Shown piece by piece: positions 28,039-33,986 of a stretch of 33,986 bases of DNA (the stretch's first letter is position 1; each line of letters begins with the position of its first letter). The position numbers were made by a program, and so were the translations under genes. The stretch lies in the UHGV virus genome UHGV-0175871; one strand, written 5' to 3'. Below the pieces are notes generated by a model that searched no databases, was not told the DNA's origin, and saw nothing but the letters and a program-made list of their open reading frames with translations. This stretch comes from a virus.

Positions 28039-28848
28039 ATGTTTCATGTGGATAATCCGACGGGTGTGCCGGTGATGCCACCTGTCGCGGCTGAATTAAG
28101 CAAAACAACGCTTTATTTTACCGAAGGCGGGAATGGTATTCCGCCCACCTATCCGGGGCCGGACTGGTTTAATATTATTCAGTCCGAACTGCTGGAAATT
28201 CTCCGGCAGGCAAATATCAAACCGGATAAAAACACCACCGACCAGATTATGACGGCGCTGAAAAAACTGTTTATTACGAACAGTGGTTCAGCCGGAGCTA
28301 TTGCCGGATTAACCGGTCAGAATAATACGTTCCCGTATTTTACGGGCGAAGACACAATGGCATTAACGCCGCTCAGTGCTTTTGTGCGCGGTATTCTCGG
28401 GAAAAACACAGCCAGTGAAATTATCGACGCACTTTCATTACGTGACACGGTAAATAAAGCTAATAGTGCTGTACCGAATACCCGCAGGGTCAACGGCATG
28501 GCCCTGTCTTCGGATATCACCATCAGCAACATCAGTGGCAATGCCGGAACGGCAACCCGGCTTCAGACGGCCCGCAGGATTAACAATGTGCTGTTTGATG
28601 GCACCAGCGATATCACCATCAGCAGCACCGATTCCGGCGCTGTGCGTGATTTCAGATACACCAGCGAAGTGTTTCACAATCCCGGTGGTAACGAAATTTC
28701 CTGGGTATTTCGCGCGCCTTCAGGTTGTATTTTGTCAGGTATTAACGTTCAGGATACTGGCAGGAGCTCTGCGGATAACATCGGCGGCGTGTATTACAAA
28801 CAAACTCAGATTTATATCAATGGCGGATGGCGCACGGTATCCGGCTAA
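28039..28848 (+). CDS. Tail fibre protein, first module (short S-like fibre)
   Basis: 269 aa; FPYFTGEDTMALTPLSAFVRGILGKNTASEIIDAL resembles the distal conserved segment of P2 H / lambda Stf-type fibres. Confidence 0.7.
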   Translation: MFHVDNPTGVPVMPPVAAELSKTTLYFTEGGNGIPPTYPGPDWFNIIQSELLEILRQANIKPDKNTTDQIMTALKKLFITNSGSAGAIAGLTGQNNTFPYFTGEDTMALTPLSAFVRGILGKNTASEIIDALSLRDTVNKANSAVPNTRRVNGMALSSDITISNISGNAGTATRLQTARRINNVLFDGTSDITISSTDSGAVRDFRYTSEVFHNPGGNEISWVFRAPSGCILSGINVQDTGRSSADNIGGVYYKQTQIYINGGWRTVSG

Positions 28849-28862
28849 TTAAGGAGAAAATA

Positions 28863-29393
28863 ATGGAACTCAGAAACGTCACGCGTTATTACCCGGAAGA
28901 GATGCCTTATGGTGAAAACATTCAGTATTTCCGCAGTGAAGACGGACAGGATTTTTATGAATCACTGGATAAATTCACGAAGAAATACAAATTGTGTATT
29001 CACCCGGAAACCGGCGTGATTTATTCAATGGCGGAAGACGTGTCCCGTCTTTATCCGGCTGGCTTCACCATTGTGGAAGTGGATGAACTGCCGGAAGGTT
29101 TTGGCATTGAAGCCTGCTGGTATTACAAAGACGGCGAAGTGCTGCCGGTTCCTGTTGATTATTCGCAACTGGCAGAAAAACAACGCCAGAGCCTGCTGAA
29201 TGAAGCGAAGGACATCACCTCCGACTGGAAAACCGAGCTGGAGCTGGGCACCATCAGCGACGATGATAAAGCGCGTCTTACGCAGTGGATGGCATATATC
29301 AAAGCGGTAAAGGCTCTGGATTTAAGCACCGTTACTGACGAAGCCTCCTTTTACTCCATCAACTGGCCGGAGCGTCCCGATGCCGCAGCTTAA
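28863..29393 (+). CDS. Tail fibre assembly chaperone (Mu U / lambda Tfa family)
   Basis: 176 aa from ATG 28863 with AAGGAG RBS; C-terminal ...DDDKARLTQWMAYIKAVKALDLS typical of Tfa proteins. Confidence 0.7.
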   Translation: MELRNVTRYYPEEMPYGENIQYFRSEDGQDFYESLDKFTKKYKLCIHPETGVIYSMAEDVSRLYPAGFTIVEVDELPEGFGIEACWYYKDGEVLPVPVDYSQLAEKQRQSLLNEAKDITSDWKTELELGTISDDDKARLTQWMAYIKAVKALDLSTVTDEASFYSINWPERPDAAA

Positions 29394-32300
29394 AGGTGTG
29401 ATTAAAACGCCCACGGGAGAACCGCTGGGTGGCGCAACCATTACACTGACCTCCCTGCACAACCGTGCAGGGATTCTGAAAAGTGTTTTCAGCCATGTCA
29501 CCACACAGAACGGGGAATATGACTTCACCGTTCTGCCGGGTGTGTACAGCGTTCGCCTGACACAAAGCACACAGCGCCTTTCAGAAATCGGTGTCATCCG
29601 CGTTTATGAAGATTCAGCGGACGGTTCGCTGAATGATTTTCTGGGCGCAACCGATATTGACCTGCGCCCGGAAGCCCTGAAGAAATTCGAAGAGCTGGCG
29701 CAACAGGCGCAGCAAAGCGCAGAAAAAGCAGGAGAGCACGCCACCGCTGCTGAACAGGCCCGCCAGGATACAGAAGCGCTCGCCGGGGAAATACAGCAGG
29801 ATGCAGAAGAAATCGCGGGTAATGTGCAGAAAGCTGAAGAGCTGGCCTCTGAGACCAACCAGAATGCCGCCCGGGCAGAACAGGCGGTCAAAGATGCCGA
29901 TAAGATAGTCCAGAAAGCGGTCGATAAACTTGCTGATGCCGCAACGCTGACCGGTGAGGCAAAAGCCAGCGCCGAAGCGGCAGCAAAAAGCGAGCAGAGC
30001 GCGAAACAGCACAGGGACGAGGCGCAACGGATAGTTGATGACCTGAAGGGAACCAACGCCAGCACGACGCAAAAAGGCCTGGTGCAACTCTGTAGTGATA
30101 CAGACAACGACAGCGAAGAACTGGCCGCCACACCAAAAGCCGTCAAAACCGTCATGGACGAGACGAAAACAAAAGCGCCACTGGACAGCCCGGCATTCAT
30201 CGGCACGCCCACCACACCAACCCCGCCGGACGATGCGACCGGGCTGGAGATGGCGAACGCGGCATTTGTTCGCAAACTGCTTGCTGCGCTGGTTGACTCG
30301 TCACCGGAAGCCCTGGACACACTGAACGAGCTGGCAGCGGCGCTGGGCAATGACCCGGAGTTTGCGACAACAATCTTGAACGCGCTGGCGGGTAAACAAC
30401 CACTCAGTGACGTGTTAACCGCAATCAGTAATCTGGAAGAACGGGCAGATAATCTTCTGTGCTTTAATCATGACGGAAATGCTTCATTGTCTCCGCTGTC
30501 AGAAAAAGCCCGGTCACTGCTGGCACAGGCCACAGCGGAAGCCATGCGCAATGAGCTTGAGCTGAAAAGCGCAGCGGTAAGGGATATTCAGATAGACCTT
30601 TACGACAGCATGGAAGGCCGTGTTGCGCTTCCCGGTGCGTATGGTTACGGAATGACGGACGCCGGAGCACGTTCAATTATTGCCAGCGATATGGCGACTG
30701 TAGCCAGAACCGCTCACAACCTGCACCCGGGACGGTATTACACCTTTTCCACACAAACGGAAAAAACAACCGGAATAACAGAAATTATCTGGCTGGATAA
30801 TGGCCGGGGCGACAAAACCAGTCAGACAGCAACAAAGCTGGTTCTGTTCTTTGGAAAAGACGGACGGATTCTTATGACCGTTCGTGGCGATAATATCTCC
30901 GCCCCGGTCACCTGGACGAATCTGACGCCACAACTGGGCAATGCAGCACAAAAGGATGCGCAGGAGAGTATTTACGACCGCACCGAAGGCCGTCTGGCGG
31001 TTCCTGGCATGTTCGGATTCGGGAAAATATTTTCCAGCGGCGACAGGACCGAGTTTAAAACAGAGGCCGATTTTCTCCGCTGGGTAAAAACGGCAAAACC
31101 CGGACGCTATGCCGTTTATGCAGATACAAATGCGGTAATACAGGGCGTGCTGTTCAAGGGTACCGTTGAAATTATCTGGCCGGAACCTCAAACCAACCCC
31201 AATCCGGCATGTGTGGCTAAAATCATTATTTTTTACGGTATTAACGGCCACATTTATTACAATCGCTACTGGACTACCGGAGATGGTTATCTGGTTGGCT
31301 GGGAAAACCTGAAAGTCAACGAGGTTTCACTCCGGGCACTGATTGAAACCCGTGCGCCACTGAACAGTCCGACACTGACCGGAACGCCGTCCACGCCAAC
31401 ACCACCAGATGATGCAGCAGGTAATGAAATAGCCAATGCGGCGTTTGTCCGCAAACTGCTTGCTGCACTGGTTGACTCGTCACCGGAAGCCCTGGACACG
31501 CTGAACGAGCTGGCAGCGGCGCTGGGTAATGACCCGAACTTTGCGACGACAATCATGAACGCGCTGGCCGGTAAACAACCGCTGAACGATGTGCTGACGG
31601 CTATCAGTGAACTGACGCAACGGGCAGATAATCTTCTGTGCTTTAATCAGGACGGGAATGCTTCACTGTCTCCACTGTCAGAAAAAGCCCGGCTGCTGCT
31701 TGCTCAGACTACAGCGGAAGACATGCTGTCTGTTCTTGAGTTGCAAAAGAATACGTACAGCGCCCAGAGTGATATTTATGACCGGGCGGAAGATAAACTG
31801 GCTCTTCCTGGTGCATTCGGATTTGGTTATCCGTTTGGAAAAGAAGACCAGCTCACCTTTAAAAACACATCGGAGCTGACCACGTGGGTAACAAACGCTT
31901 ATCCGGGACGTTATGCGGTAACCGTCCCTAATCAGGGAACAATCATACCTGGTGTTTATTTTACGGGTATTCTTGATGTTATCTGGCAGATGAACCAGTA
32001 CGAAACAAAGCCCCCGTCAGATGCTGCAAAATGCATAATGTTTTATGCAGGAAACGGTGATATCTGGTTTAACCGATATATTTACGGGCGTCTTGTTGGC
32101 TGGGAGCGAATAAAGATATCCACAGCCGATATTTATAATGTTATGGGGGGGACCATCAGCAATGAGTGGGGAGACCCTGATGTTGGTGGACTGATTATTG
32201 CTGCATACCAGGGAACGACTGACGGAGATACAAAAATCAAGCTTGTGAGAGGGCAATATTACGCAGGCTCACGGCTGGGGCCGGTGGGAATTTCAGCGCC

Positions 32301-32454
32301 CTACAATCCAGCCGGAACGTATTCATCAAGCCCGCAATTCTACGTTATGGGAAATGCAGGTCATTCATTACCGGGTACATATCGCGCCCTGTCCGGGGTA
32401 ACAAACACCTATGGTTCCGACGCGATGATTGGGCTTTTTATTCGCACAGCGTGA
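29380..32454 (+). CDS. Side tail fibre protein, lambda Stf-like, with internal tandem duplication
   Basis: 1024 aa; N-terminal ...IGVIRVYEDSADGSLNDFL; Ala/Glu/Gln-rich coiled shaft; conserved TQKGLVQLCS...LAATPKAVKTVMDETKTKAPLDSPA...LDTLNELAAALGNDPEFATT..NALAGKQP block occurring twice. Confidence 0.85.
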   Translation: MPQLKGVIKTPTGEPLGGATITLTSLHNRAGILKSVFSHVTTQNGEYDFTVLPGVYSVRLTQSTQRLSEIGVIRVYEDSADGSLNDFLGATDIDLRPEALKKFEELAQQAQQSAEKAGEHATAAEQARQDTEALAGEIQQDAEEIAGNVQKAEELASETNQNAARAEQAVKDADKIVQKAVDKLADAATLTGEAKASAEAAAKSEQSAKQHRDEAQRIVDDLKGTNASTTQKGLVQLCSDTDNDSEELAATPKAVKTVMDETKTKAPLDSPAFIGTPTTPTPPDDATGLEMANAAFVRKLLAALVDSSPEALDTLNELAAALGNDPEFATTILNALAGKQPLSDVLTAISNLEERADNLLCFNHDGNASLSPLSEKARSLLAQATAEAMRNELELKSAAVRDIQIDLYDSMEGRVALPGAYGYGMTDAGARSIIASDMATVARTAHNLHPGRYYTFSTQTEKTTGITEIIWLDNGRGDKTSQTATKLVLFFGKDGRILMTVRGDNISAPVTWTNLTPQLGNAAQKDAQESIYDRTEGRLAVPGMFGFGKIFSSGDRTEFKTEADFLRWVKTAKPGRYAVYADTNAVIQGVLFKGTVEIIWPEPQTNPNPACVAKIIIFYGINGHIYYNRYWTTGDGYLVGWENLKVNEVSLRALIETRAPLNSPTLTGTPSTPTPPDDAAGNEIANAAFVRKLLAALVDSSPEALDTLNELAAALGNDPNFATTIMNALAGKQPLNDVLTAISELTQRADNLLCFNQDGNASLSPLSEKARLLLAQTTAEDMLSVLELQKNTYSAQSDIYDRAEDKLALPGAFGFGYPFGKEDQLTFKNTSELTTWVTNAYPGRYAVTVPNQGTIIPGVYFTGILDVIWQMNQYETKPPSDAAKCIMFYAGNGDIWFNRYIYGRLVGWERIKISTADIYNVMGGTISNEWGDPDVGGLIIAAYQGTTDGDTKIKLVRGQYYAGSRLGPVGISAPYNPAGTYSSSPQFYVMGNAGHSLPGTYRALSGVTNTYGSDAMIGLFIRTA
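30175..30546 (+). repeat. Copy 1 of the ~372-bp direct repeat inside the tail fibre gene
   Basis: Aligns in frame with 31354..31725, about 80-90% identity by eye, with perfect blocks of 26-32 bp. Confidence 0.85.
31354..31725 (+). repeat. Copy 2 of the ~372-bp direct repeat inside the tail fibre gene
   Basis: See copy 1; offset 1179 bp (393 codons). Confidence 0.85.
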
Positions 32455-33031
32455 GGAATGCATCGTGGAAATCAAAGAAATCATTAATCCCCGCTATACA
32501 GAAAATAGCGCTGTAGACTGTGACGTTTGGTTTGACGGCCAGCCGCAGCCAGTCCCTTACACTGCCACTCCTGATGATACATCAACAATCGGTAAGCGCA
32601 TCTGGCAGGAACTGCAAAGCGGCAAATGGGGCGAAATCGCCCCGTTCACCATCACGCCGGAGCTTATCGCAGCGGCAAAAGATGCCAAAAAGATGGAAAT
32701 CGAGGCGTGGCGCACAGAACAGGAAGCGCAGCCGTTCACGTTCGAATGGAACGGTCGCACCTGGAACGCTGGCCCCGACTCACTGGCCCGTCTTTATCCT
32801 GTGGTAATGGCGGCGAAATCTGACACAGCGCGGGACGTGATGACGTGGGGTGACGCCGATAATCAACAGGTGAAACTGTCAATGCCGGAACTGGAAGAAC
32901 TGGCGACAGCAATGGCGCAGGCACAGGTCGATCGCAATGACGGGATTTATCAGCGCCAGCGTGAAATGAAGGAGCAGCTTTCCCGGCTGTCCATACTGGA
33001 CGAGGTGAGAGCGTTAACTGTCGGTGATTAA
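32429..33031 (+). CDS. Putative tail fibre assembly chaperone, second module
   Basis: About 190-200 aa; likely GTG start at 32465 after GAGGAA (the track start is a TTG overlapping the fibre gene); assignment by position after the fibre gene. Confidence 0.45.
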   Translation: MGFLFAQREECIVEIKEIINPRYTENSAVDCDVWFDGQPQPVPYTATPDDTSTIGKRIWQELQSGKWGEIAPFTITPELIAAAKDAKKMEIEAWRTEQEAQPFTFEWNGRTWNAGPDSLARLYPVVMAAKSDTARDVMTWGDADNQQVKLSMPELEELATAMAQAQVDRNDGIYQRQREMKEQLSRLSILDEVRALTVGD

Positions 33032-33053
33032 ATAATCAGTATGTATAGTTTAT

Positions 33054-33081
33054 GACGATCGATAACATCATATCGATCGTC
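33054..33081 (+). promoter_or_regulatory. GATC-containing inverted repeat upstream of com-mom (candidate Dam-methylation-sensitive operator)
   Basis: GACGATCGATA-ACATCA-TATCGATCGTC: 11-bp arms each with a GATC, about 75 bp upstream of com. Confidence 0.55.
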
Positions 33082-33154
33082 GGTTTGCATCAATTGTGAT
33101 TAAATACCCCCAGCCCTCCGGGCGCTCATGTCTGGTTATTACACAGGGGGAATC

Positions 33155-33340
33155 ATGGACTCTGTTCGCTGTAAAAACTGCAATAAATTACTGTTTAAAG
33201 GAGGTTTTAAGCATATAGAAATTAAATGCCCTCGCTGTAAACGTTACATTGTCATATCGAATGCCAAAGAGCATCCCACGGAGCTGTATTGTGGGAAAAG
33301 AGAAGAAATCACGCATTCTGACAAAACCCTGCGTTATTGA
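33155..33340 (+). CDS. com: Com, zinc-finger translational activator of mom
   Basis: 61 aa from ATG 33155 after AGGGGG; [10 protein letters not shown]...[13 protein letters not shown]...[22 protein letters not shown] matches Mu Com. Confidence 0.8.
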
Positions 33341-33986
33341 GTATGAAGGCCGGATTGTCGGCTATGGTTCAAAGGAGCTGCGCGTTGAAACCATATCCTG
33401 CTGGCTGGCCCGCACAATCATTCAGACAAAACACTATTCTCGCCGTTTTGTGAATAACTCCTACCTGCATCTTGGCGTATTCAGCGGACGTGATCTGGTT
33501 GGCGTTCTTCAGTGGGGATATGCCCTTAACCCCAACTCAGGGCGTCGGGTCGTGCTTGAAACGGATAACCGGGGCTATATGGAACTGAATCGCATGTGGC
33601 TACACGACGACATGCCCCGCAACTCTGAATCACGGGCCATCAGTTACGCGCTGAAAACCATCAGGTTACTGTATCCGTCAGTTGAGTGGGTTCAGTCTTT
33701 TGCAGACGAACGCTGCGGACGTGCTGGCGTGGTATATCAGGCGTCGAATTTTGATTTTATAGGCAGCCACGAAAGCACGTTCTACGAACTGGACGGCGAG
33801 TGGTATCACGAGATAGCGATGAACGCGATTAAGCGCGGAGGGCAACGAGGTGTGTATTTACGGGCTAATAAGGAGCGGGCCGTGGTACACAAATTTAATC
33901 AGTATCGCTACATCAGATTCCTGAATAAGCGCGCAAAAAAGCGCCTAAACACCAAGCTATTCAGGGTTCAGCCATACCCGAAGTGA
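33291..33986 (+). CDS. mom: Mom, DNA modification enzyme (adenine modification, anti-restriction)
   Basis: Sequence ...[15 protein letters not shown]...[23 protein letters not shown] matches Mu Mom; GTG at 33291 gives 231 aa; in-frame ATGs at 33249 and 33261 are alternative starts; overlaps the 3' end of com. Confidence 0.85.

What the first reader, a model, noticed from the sequence alone, without database searches (positions are those of the whole stretch)
29380..32454. 1024-aa side tail fibre built from a duplicated constant block and two tandem tip modules
The ORF contains two in-frame copies of the conserved Stf/P2-H adaptor block (KAPLDSPA..GTPTTPTPPDD...LDTLNELAAALGNDP.FATT..NALAGKQP...LLCFN.DGNASLSPLSEKAR.LLAQ), at 30175..30546 and 31354..31725. 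Each copy is followed by a different distal region sharing only a short motif (IYDR.E..LA.PG.FGFG...PGRYAV...II.W...FY..NG.I..NRY...G.LVGWE). The gene therefore encodes two alternative receptor-binding tips in series. Homologous recombination between the repeats would delete about 1.18 kb in frame and leave a fibre with only the second tip, a possible direct-repeat host-range switch in place of Mu's inversion switch. The second tip region is also more AT-rich than the first.
Basis: partly seen in the sequence, partly recalled or inferred. Interest (0 to 1): 0.7.

Follow-up and report, generated by a model that had tools for sequence, protein, structure and literature searches.

The report
Long mosaic phage tail fibre
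This is an ordinary but long tail-fibre gene of a Mu-like E. coli phage that contains the widely shared fibre "joint" block twice and three bead-like knob domains; relatives show that recombination at these repeats adds or removes modules over evolutionary time, but nothing indicates a programmed host-range switch.

Summary
ORF 29380..32454 encodes 1024 aa and carries two in-frame 372-nt blocks (30175-30546, 31354-31725) that are 82% (nt) and 85% (aa) identical, 1179 nt apart.

The anatomy needs correcting. Three homologous ~125-aa knob domains are present, not one shared motif: D1 and D2 follow block A, D3 follows block B. There is only one terminal domain (CT, aa 919-1024). D1-D2 is therefore not a complete second tip.

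At least 113 protein clusters from E. coli, Salmonella and E. marmotae share the collinear N-F2-block-D-D-block-D-CT layout. Everything up to D2 is conserved (91-96% median identity). Block B is 76% and D3-CT only 38%. The exchangeable host-range cassette therefore starts at block B.

The predicted in-frame deletion product exists in nature. Proteins of 641 aa carry the same D3-CT (98-100%), exactly 393 aa shorter than the matching 1034-aa long forms. Some have block A/B chimeras. One long form shows a 120-nt gene-conversion tract between its own two blocks.

Recombination at the repeat is thus real over evolutionary time. A programmed switch is unsupported: no recombinase, identity runs of at most 32 nt, a one-way deletion, and a stable architecture. 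This is an ordinary mosaic fibre of modest interest.

The parts
29380..32454 (+). Long Stf-type tail-fibre gene, 1024 aa plus stop
   Evidence: Intact ORF. PF08400, PF03406 and phrog_2636 'tail fiber protein'. An identical protein is found on 4 metagenome contigs.
29380..30060 (+). N module (aa 1-227): tail-attachment domain plus Ala/Glu/Gln-rich shaft, presumably coiled-coil
   Evidence: PF08400 phage_tail_N covers aa 4-130, E = 1.5e-26. aa 3-187 match PDB 7kjk collar spike and 9e7m tail fibre. Two N types (about 55% identical) carry the same distal modules.
30061..30174 (+). F2 (aa 228-265): phage tail-fibre repeat preceding block A
   Evidence: PF03406, E = 1.2e-15. aa 215-269 align with Mu S residues 99-154 (PDB 5yvq).
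30175..30546 (+). Block A (aa 266-389): first copy of the conserved Stf/P1 S/P2 H joint block
   Evidence: Median identity to relatives is 95%.
30568..30942 (+). D1 knob domain (aa 397-521)
   Evidence: Homologous to D2 and D3. No Pfam family matches it.
30943..31335 (+). D2 knob domain (aa 522-652)
   Evidence: 44% identical to D3, E = 7e-31. Its conserved IYDR..PG.FGFG start is the 52-nt repeat family D2.
31354..31725 (+). Block B (aa 659-782): second copy of the joint block, and the 5' boundary of the exchangeable tip cassette
   Evidence: Median identity to relatives falls to 76% here. The 99.3%-identity tract shared by the short-form locus L009 and the long-form locus L002 begins at its first nucleotide.
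31750..32133 (+). D3 knob domain (aa 791-918), part of the variable tip cassette
32134..32451 (+). CT domain (aa 919-1024): single terminal domain, the likely receptor-binding tip
   Evidence: It is always C-terminal and single in related architectures. It co-varies with the N-terminal half of the downstream chaperone.
32465..33031 (+). DUF4376 tail-fibre assembly protein (188 aa from GTG at 32465; the mechanical ORF starts at TTG 32429)
   Evidence: PF14301, E = 3.5e-17, and phrog_1141. Homologues are annotated as 187-190 aa. Covariation with CT is shown.
28039..28848 (+). Context: 269-aa Mu S homologue (short fibre)
   Evidence: aa 1-81 match Mu tail fibre S residues 1-81, E = 1.4e-21. phrog_1833 tail fibre.
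28827..29393 (+). Context: Caudo_TAP tail-fibre assembly protein for the short fibre
   Evidence: PF02413, E = 8.8e-22.
33128..33986 (+). Context: com (33128-33340) and mom (33249-33986, running to the end of the window). They follow the chaperone directly, with no gin gene between.
   Evidence: PF10122 and PF25680. ORF map.

Best explanation
The gene encodes one contiguous, presumably trimeric, lambda-Stf-type tail fibre of a Mu-like E. coli phage. It is assembled from reusable modules in this order:
- an N-terminal tail-attachment domain with a presumably coiled-coil shaft;
- the F2 repeat;
- joint block A;
- knobs D1 and D2;
- joint block B;
- knob D3;
- the terminal CT domain.
The DUF4376 protein encoded immediately downstream probably helps the tip fold.

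The fibre belongs to a widespread, stably inherited 'two-block' family. In that family N through D2 is the conserved proximal fibre. Block B, D3, CT and the N-terminal half of the chaperone form the exchangeable host-specificity cassette.

The joint block is the same conserved sequence that lambda Stf, P1 S and P2 H share. It acts as a patch of homology at which ordinary homologous recombination swaps tips between prophages. Because the block occurs twice in this gene, recombination there can also occasionally remove or add the D1-D2 segment (1179 nt) or convert one copy with the other. The conserved start of the D domains allows a second in-register event of 804 nt. These are rare evolutionary events, not a programmed switch.

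Status of each step. Shown: the anatomy, the family membership, the conservation gradient, the natural long, short and intermediate forms, and the conversion and crossover tracts. Inferred: the trimeric beads-on-a-shaft structure, CT as the receptor-binding tip, D1-D2 as shaft or accessory knobs, and the recombination pathway.
For: - Anatomy.
- Stf-type domains and chaperone. The block is homologous to lambda, P1 and P2 fibres.
- Family: all 113 complete proteins among the best 120 hits have N-F2-BLK-D-D-BLK-D-CT.
- Conservation gradient over 109 complete relatives, median identity to the window: N 96, block A 95, D1-D2 91, block B 76, D3-CT 38%.
- The same Mu-like prophage backbone carries 639-aa and 777-aa versions with other tips.
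- The same D3-CT (98-100% identical) occurs in 641-aa one-block, 766-aa, 734-aa and 746-aa proteins.
- 1034 minus 641 is 393 aa, which equals 1179 nt. 1034 minus 766 is 268 aa, which equals 804 nt, the spacing of the D2/D3 motif repeat. The 766-aa junction lies inside PG.FGFG.
- Short form L009 and long form L002 sit in the same prophage type at the same chromosomal site. They are 99.3% identical from the first base of block B onward, but 92.9% identical upstream.
- In L006, block A nt 1-120 are 120/120 identical to the gene's own block B, against 92/120 in the window. This is a gene-conversion tract.
- The single block of L008 switches from A-type to B-type between nt 303 and 313.
- The N-terminal half of the chaperone tracks CT; its C-terminal half tracks the phage backbone.
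- D and CT are modelled as two beta-rich domains. Their best structural neighbours are phage fibre and RBP knob domains.
- D-containing proteins show combinatorial layouts with one to three D domains, up to two blocks and at most one CT, which is terminal wherever present.
- Recombination between 88%-identical stf regions of lambda and Rac has been shown experimentally (PMC3945230, read).
Against: - No experimental data exist for this fibre, so receptor, stoichiometry and knob function are inferred.
- The direction of the events cannot be decided. Deletion from a long form, and tip exchange between long and short genes at the block, give the same products.
- D1-D2 varies somewhat between relatives (73-100% identity), so a binding role is not excluded.
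- The frequency of the deletion within a phage population was not measured.
Confidence: 0.8

Rival explanations
1. First reader's model. The fibre carries two alternative, complete receptor-binding tips in series. Recombination between the two blocks acts as a direct-repeat host-range switch that replaces Mu's Gin inversion.
For: - The repeat is real and in frame.
- D1 and D2 are homologous to the tip knob D3.
- Natural 641-aa forms equal to the predicted deletion product exist, some with chimeric A/B blocks.
- The phage lacks gin.
Against: - D1-D2 has no CT domain, and CT is single and terminal in all layouts seen.
- D1-D2 is conserved like the constant region, whereas D3-CT is hypervariable.
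- The repeats are only 82% identical, with identity runs of at most 32 nt.
- A deletion cannot be reversed within one genome.
- The two-block form is maintained in at least 113 clusters over three species.
- There is no recombinase and there are no specific sites.
- The Mu S slot is filled by another gene.
Confidence: 0.1
2. D1-D2 are functional accessory adhesin knobs that bind a conserved primary receptor such as a common LPS or OMP feature. The long form would then be a bivalent fibre, and the long and short forms would be alternative adaptive states kept by selection, although produced by ordinary recombination.
For: - D domains resemble RBP knob domains.
- D1-D2 is conserved yet not invariant, at 73-100% identity.
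- Long, intermediate and short forms with the same tip coexist in databases.
Against: - No functional data exist.
- Conservation is equally compatible with a purely structural spacer.
- Internal knobs of T4 gp34 and R-pyocin fibres are generally considered structural (own knowledge).
Confidence: 0.2
3. The duplication is an assembly artefact, that is, a metagenomic mis-join of two fibre alleles.
For: The window appears to be a metagenome-assembled contig. Repeats of this kind can mislead assemblers.
Against: - An identical protein lies on 4 independent contigs.
- The same architecture is found in assembled E. coli chromosomes, in isolated phage Rac-SA53, and in more than 100 clusters.
Confidence: 0.01

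Closest known systems
Lambda side tail fibre Stf and the prophage Stf homologues ('prophage tail fiber N-terminal domain-containing protein')
   Same: PF08400 N domain, PF03406 repeat, the conserved block shared with P1 S and P2 H, and a downstream assembly chaperone. Recombination in stf-tfa between lambda and Rac or Qin prophages has been shown experimentally (PMC3945230).
   Different: The block occurs twice. The distal part consists of D knobs plus CT, which have no Pfam family, rather than the gp37-like tip of lambda Stf. The chaperone is DUF4376 rather than Caudo_TAP. The host phage is a Mu-like myovirus.
The two-block fibre family of E. coli, Salmonella and E. marmotae prophages (about 1024-1047 aa; also in phage Rac-SA53 'tail3')
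   Same: A collinear N-F2-BLK-D-D-BLK-D-CT layout at 68-100% identity.
   Different: Only the tip cassette differs. The window's D3-CT is a rare allele: it occurs in 1 of 5426 complete E. coli genomes and in about 30 protein clusters.
T-even gp37/gp38 plasticity: recombination between conserved motifs that swaps adhesin specificity, and small-domain duplications that expand host range (Tetart 1996, 1998, as cited in PMC3157838)
   Same: Conserved motifs inside fibre genes act as recombination joints. In-register duplications and deletions of fibre modules change the fibre.
   Different: A different protein family and different motifs. For the present fibre no host-range effect has been tested.
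Mu G segment with Gin (also P1 Cin and e14 Pin) invertible tail-fibre switches
   Same: Both vary the distal fibre part downstream of a constant region that ends near the same conserved block.
   Different: The window has no invertase, no inverted repeats and no opposite-strand alternative genes. Any change here would be a rare one-way deletion by general recombination.
Tandem knob domains of R-type pyocin fibres, Mu S, T4 gp34 and phage K gp144
   Different: The similarity is weak. No sequence homology was detected. The model is a monomer of moderate confidence.

Membership tests
Lambda-Stf-type prophage side tail fibre | N-terminal PF08400 (phage_tail_N) domain | tested here: met
   aa 4-130, E = 1.5e-26, 93.4 bits against a cutoff of 26.6.
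Lambda-Stf-type prophage side tail fibre | Conserved block shared with lambda Stf, P1 S and P2 H | tested here: met
   tblastn of block A: lambda 52% over 95% of the block, P1 52% over 100%, P2 62% over 69%.
Lambda-Stf-type prophage side tail fibre | Cognate tail-fibre assembly gene immediately downstream | tested here: met
   A DUF4376 / phrog_1141 protein starts 11 nt after the stop codon. Its N-terminal half co-varies with CT. It is a different chaperone family from lambda Tfa.
Lambda-Stf-type prophage side tail fibre | Trimeric fibre present in virions and mediating adsorption | not testable with these tools
   Requires virion imaging, proteomics and adsorption assays.
Two-block long fibre family (N-F2-BLK-D-D-BLK-D-CT) | Full-length collinear module order | tested here: met
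   113 of 113 complete proteins among the top 120 hits share the order.
Programmed invertible fibre switch (Mu G/Gin, P1 C/Cin, e14 P/Pin) | Adjacent serine invertase gene | tested here: not met
   The chaperone is followed after about 100 nt by com and mom. No further ORF lies between them.
Programmed invertible fibre switch (Mu G/Gin, P1 C/Cin, e14 P/Pin) | Inverted repeats flanking alternative fibre and chaperone genes on the opposite strand | tested here: not met
   Only four weak 15-20-nt inverted pairs were found, none flanking the distal region. Minus-strand ORFs of 62-248 aa overlap the gene in the mechanical list, but none was examined as an alternative fibre gene.
High-frequency direct-repeat (recombinational) switch | Long, near-identical repeats that allow frequent recombination | tested here: not met
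   82% identity over 394 nt. The longest perfect runs are 32, 31 and 26 nt.
High-frequency direct-repeat (recombinational) switch | Both states detectable within one population | not testable with these tools
   Only between-genome variants could be examined. Read-level data are needed.
Phage fibre knob-domain fold (R-pyocin, Mu S, T4 gp34 type) | Structural superposition of D and CT on solved knob domains | tested here: inconclusive

The most novel reading that the evidence does not exclude
The long form is a truly bivalent adhesin. On this reading the internal D1-D2 knobs bind a second, more conserved surface receptor, and the terminal D3-CT provides strain specificity. The reiterated joint block would then keep a standing long/short polymorphism in prophage populations, which selection uses as a slow, one-way modulator of fibre length and host range. 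That would be a recombinational 'accordion' complementing invertase switches.
Probability: 0.15. Interest if true: 0.55.

Novelty: new member of a known kind. Interest (0 to 1): 0.3.

Why it matters
The locus is a clean, data-rich example of how conserved joint blocks in tail-fibre genes let prophages exchange, add or drop modules in register. The natural series is useful in two ways.

First, it defines tolerated fusion points for anyone engineering chimeric fibres: the start of the block, the last third of the block, and the PG.FGFG motif of the knob.

Second, it gives a testable question: do internal knobs contribute to binding, or only to fibre length?

It does not reveal a new type of host-range switch.

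Tried and rejected
- A blastp self-comparison of the whole protein returned only the identity hit. Segment-wise comparison was needed.
- The first homology search, with D3-CT alone, returned only proteins of 424 aa or less and missed the full-length relatives. It could not be used to look for deletion products. A synthetic 631-aa 'deletion product' query did work.
- Scans of viral contigs and metagenome contigs for D3-CT gave nothing useful. The single hit was a 2.4-kb contig that starts just upstream of D3.
- Megablast of D3-CT against 5426 complete E. coli genomes found one strain only, so there is little power there.
- Pfam has no family for D or CT. The PDB sequence search found no relative for those domains.
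- The Nature 2024 STF-engineering paper and the PhiNP RBP paper held nothing specific to this block or family.
- Assembly artefact was rejected.
- An invertible-segment switch was rejected.
- K-12 Rac StfR was considered as a two-block example from memory and set aside as not matching. This was not tested here.
Full report
**1. Observation**

The window is a nearly complete Mu-like phage. It encodes MuA transposase, MuB, a Mu portal, gpT, a sheath protein, gp47 and gp48, and ends with com and mom. ORF 29380..32454 (+) is intact and encodes 1024 aa.

The two claimed copies are real. The repeat finder reports 30175-30474 and 31354-31653 at 83% identity, 1179 nt apart. blastn extends the match to 394 nt at 82.2%, E = 5e-113. 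The protein blocks aa 266-389 and aa 659-782 are 85.5% identical, E = 9e-65. Homology starts exactly at the Ala-Pro-Leu codons and ends near 30546 / 31725.

**2. Corrected anatomy**

The regions after the blocks share a whole domain, not a short motif. This ~125-aa domain (D) begins with IYDR..LA.PG.FGFG and ends with GWE. It occurs three times: D1 (aa 397-521), D2 (aa 522-652) and D3 (aa 791-918). D2 and D3 are 44% identical, and D1 is about 30% identical to either. After D3 comes a 106-aa terminal domain, CT (aa 919-1024).

The module order is N (PF08400 plus a presumably coiled-coil shaft), F2 (PF03406), block A, D1, D2, block B, D3, CT.

The first 'tip' therefore lacks CT.

**3. Context**

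The Mu S homologue is the preceding 269-aa ORF at 28039-28848. Its residues 1-81 match Mu S residues 1-81. It has its own Caudo_TAP chaperone.

The 1024-aa gene is a second fibre, of the lambda-Stf type. It is followed 11 nt later by a DUF4376 assembly protein and then directly by com and mom. There is no gin gene and no invertible segment. The same arrangement of two fibre-plus-chaperone pairs occurs in non-Mu prophages that have a baseplate-J gene.

**4. A common, stable architecture**

The exact protein lies on four metagenome contigs. Among the best 120 database hits, all 113 complete proteins have the same N-F2-BLK-D-D-BLK-D-CT order. They are 1023-1047 aa long, 68-100% identical to the window, and come from E. 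coli, Salmonella enterica and E. marmotae. Phage Rac-SA53 'tail3' and two prophages of E. coli 401651 have the same order.

Median identity to the window over 109 complete relatives falls along the gene:

| Module | Median identity |
|---|---|
| N | 96% |
| Block A | 95% |
| D1-D2 | 91% |
| Block B | 76% |
| D3-CT | 38% |

The constant/variable boundary is therefore at block B. D1-D2 belongs to the conserved proximal fibre.

The N-terminal half of the chaperone follows CT: it is 86-99% identical when CT is 99-100% identical, and 61-72% identical when CT is 37-46% identical. Its C-terminal half follows the phage backbone. This defines the exchanged cassette as block B (or part of it), D3, CT and the 5' half of the chaperone gene.

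**5. Natural products of recombination at the repeats**

I searched with a synthetic 631-aa 'deletion product'. This recovered nine clusters of 641-aa proteins (P0172-P0180). Their layout is N'-F2-one block-D3-CT, with D3 and CT 98-100% identical to the window. Long forms with the same N' type are 1034 aa. The difference is 393 aa, or 1179 nt, exactly as predicted.

Three clusters of 766-aa proteins have N'-F2-A-D1-D3-CT. Their junction lies inside the conserved PG.FGFG motif. That corresponds to the 804-nt spacing of the D2/D3 motif repeat. Forms of 734 and 746 aa also exist.

Short-form locus L009 and long-form locus L002 lie in the same prophage type at the same chromosomal site (pphA-yebW-rsmF). 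They are 99.3% identical from the first base of block B for 7 kb downstream, but only 92.9% identical upstream.

Diagnostic sites (18 aa, 62 nt) show mosaic blocks:
- The single block of L008, in a Mu-like com/mom context, is A-type up to nt 303 and B-type from nt 313.
- P0172 is entirely B-type.
- P0175 reads b-a-b.
- In long-form L006, nt 1-120 of block A are 120/120 identical to its own block B, against 92/120 in the window. The rest of that block stays A-type. This is a clear intragenic gene-conversion tract.

Recombination at the block, including between the two copies in one gene, has therefore happened repeatedly. Its direction cannot be determined. Deletion from a long form, or tip exchange between long and short genes, would give the same products.

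**6. Why it is not a switch**

- The repeats are 18% diverged, and the longest perfect runs are 32, 31 and 26 nt.
- Published work on lambda and Rac stf regions shows that such recombination is possible but rare. It depends strongly on Rad52-like phage recombinases. On E. coli plasmids, 4% divergence lowers recombination 10,000-fold. In the lambda lytic cycle, 12% divergence lowers it about 100-fold (PMC3945230).
- A deletion is one-way.
- There are no site-specific recombinase genes or sites.
- The long layout is kept across many lineages.

**7. What the modules probably are**

An AlphaFold model of D3-CT has mean pLDDT 70.5. Residues 1-38 and 135-148 are below 50, and the two domains reach about 77-89. 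It shows two beta-rich globular domains.

A profile of D1, D2 and D3 finds only 88 representatives among 1.84 billion proteins clustered at 50% identity. Their layouts are combinatorial: N-D-CT, N-BLK-D-CT, D-D-CT, N-D-BLK-D-CT, N-D-BLK-D-BLK-D and others. They have one to three D domains, up to two blocks, and at most one CT, which is terminal wherever present.

This fits a beads-on-a-shaft fibre in which CT, possibly with the last D, is the specificity tip. Internal D knobs would be shaft or accessory modules. That last step is inference.

**8. Comparison with known systems, and verdict**

The gene meets the tested criteria for a lambda-Stf-type prophage fibre and for the two-block family. 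It fails the criteria for an invertible or high-frequency switch.

The phenomenon is module shuffling, duplication and deletion through recombination at conserved fibre motifs. This is established for T-even gp37/gp38 (Tetart 1996 and 1998, cited in PMC3157838) and for stf mosaics (PMC3945230). From my own knowledge it is also established for the P2, P1, Mu and lambda fibre genes.

The finding is a correct observation with an over-interpreted mechanism. It is a new, well-documented member of a known kind and of modest interest. The residual novel possibility is that D1-D2 is a second functional adhesin and that the long/short polymorphism is adaptive. I rate this at about 15%.

Noticed in passing
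window 28039-29393 and 32465-33986: This Mu-like phage has no gin gene or invertible G segment. The Mu S homologue is only 269 aa and has a Caudo_TAP chaperone. It is followed by a second, lambda-Stf-type fibre with a DUF4376 chaperone, and then directly by com and mom. The same tandem 'two fibre plus chaperone pairs' layout occurs in non-Mu prophages (L002, L009).
   Followed up: partly
database homologues P0059, P0062, P0065 and others: Many homologues of this tail fibre are named 'shikimate transporter' in NCBI and nr. This looks like a propagated mis-annotation.
   Followed up: no
window 30568-31335 and 31750-32451: The D knob domain and the CT domain match no Pfam family and no PDB sequence. 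The D family is small: 88 representatives at 50% identity among 1.84 billion proteins.
   Followed up: partly
L002 5491-8592 and L006 5611-8715 (E. coli 401651): One E. coli strain carries two prophages at different chromosomal sites whose long fibres have the same D3-CT tip (99-100% identical). In one of them, the first 120 nt of block A have been converted to the gene's own block B sequence.
   Followed up: yes
L003 6001-7935 (E. coli STEC1575): The orthologous gene in this Mu-like prophage is a pseudogene that is cut off right after D2. Block B, D3 and CT are missing, while the DUF4376 gene is still present about 300 nt downstream.
   Followed up: no
window 32465-33031 compared with L001-L009: The DUF4376 chaperone is itself a mosaic. 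Its N-terminal ~80 aa co-vary with the fibre's CT domain, and its C-terminal part co-varies with the phage backbone. This suggests a second recombination joint inside the chaperone gene.
   Followed up: partly
window 32429-32465: The mechanical ORF for the chaperone starts at TTG 32429 and overlaps the end of the fibre gene. Homologues are annotated from the position equivalent to GTG 32465 (188 aa), so the true start is probably 32465.
   Followed up: partly
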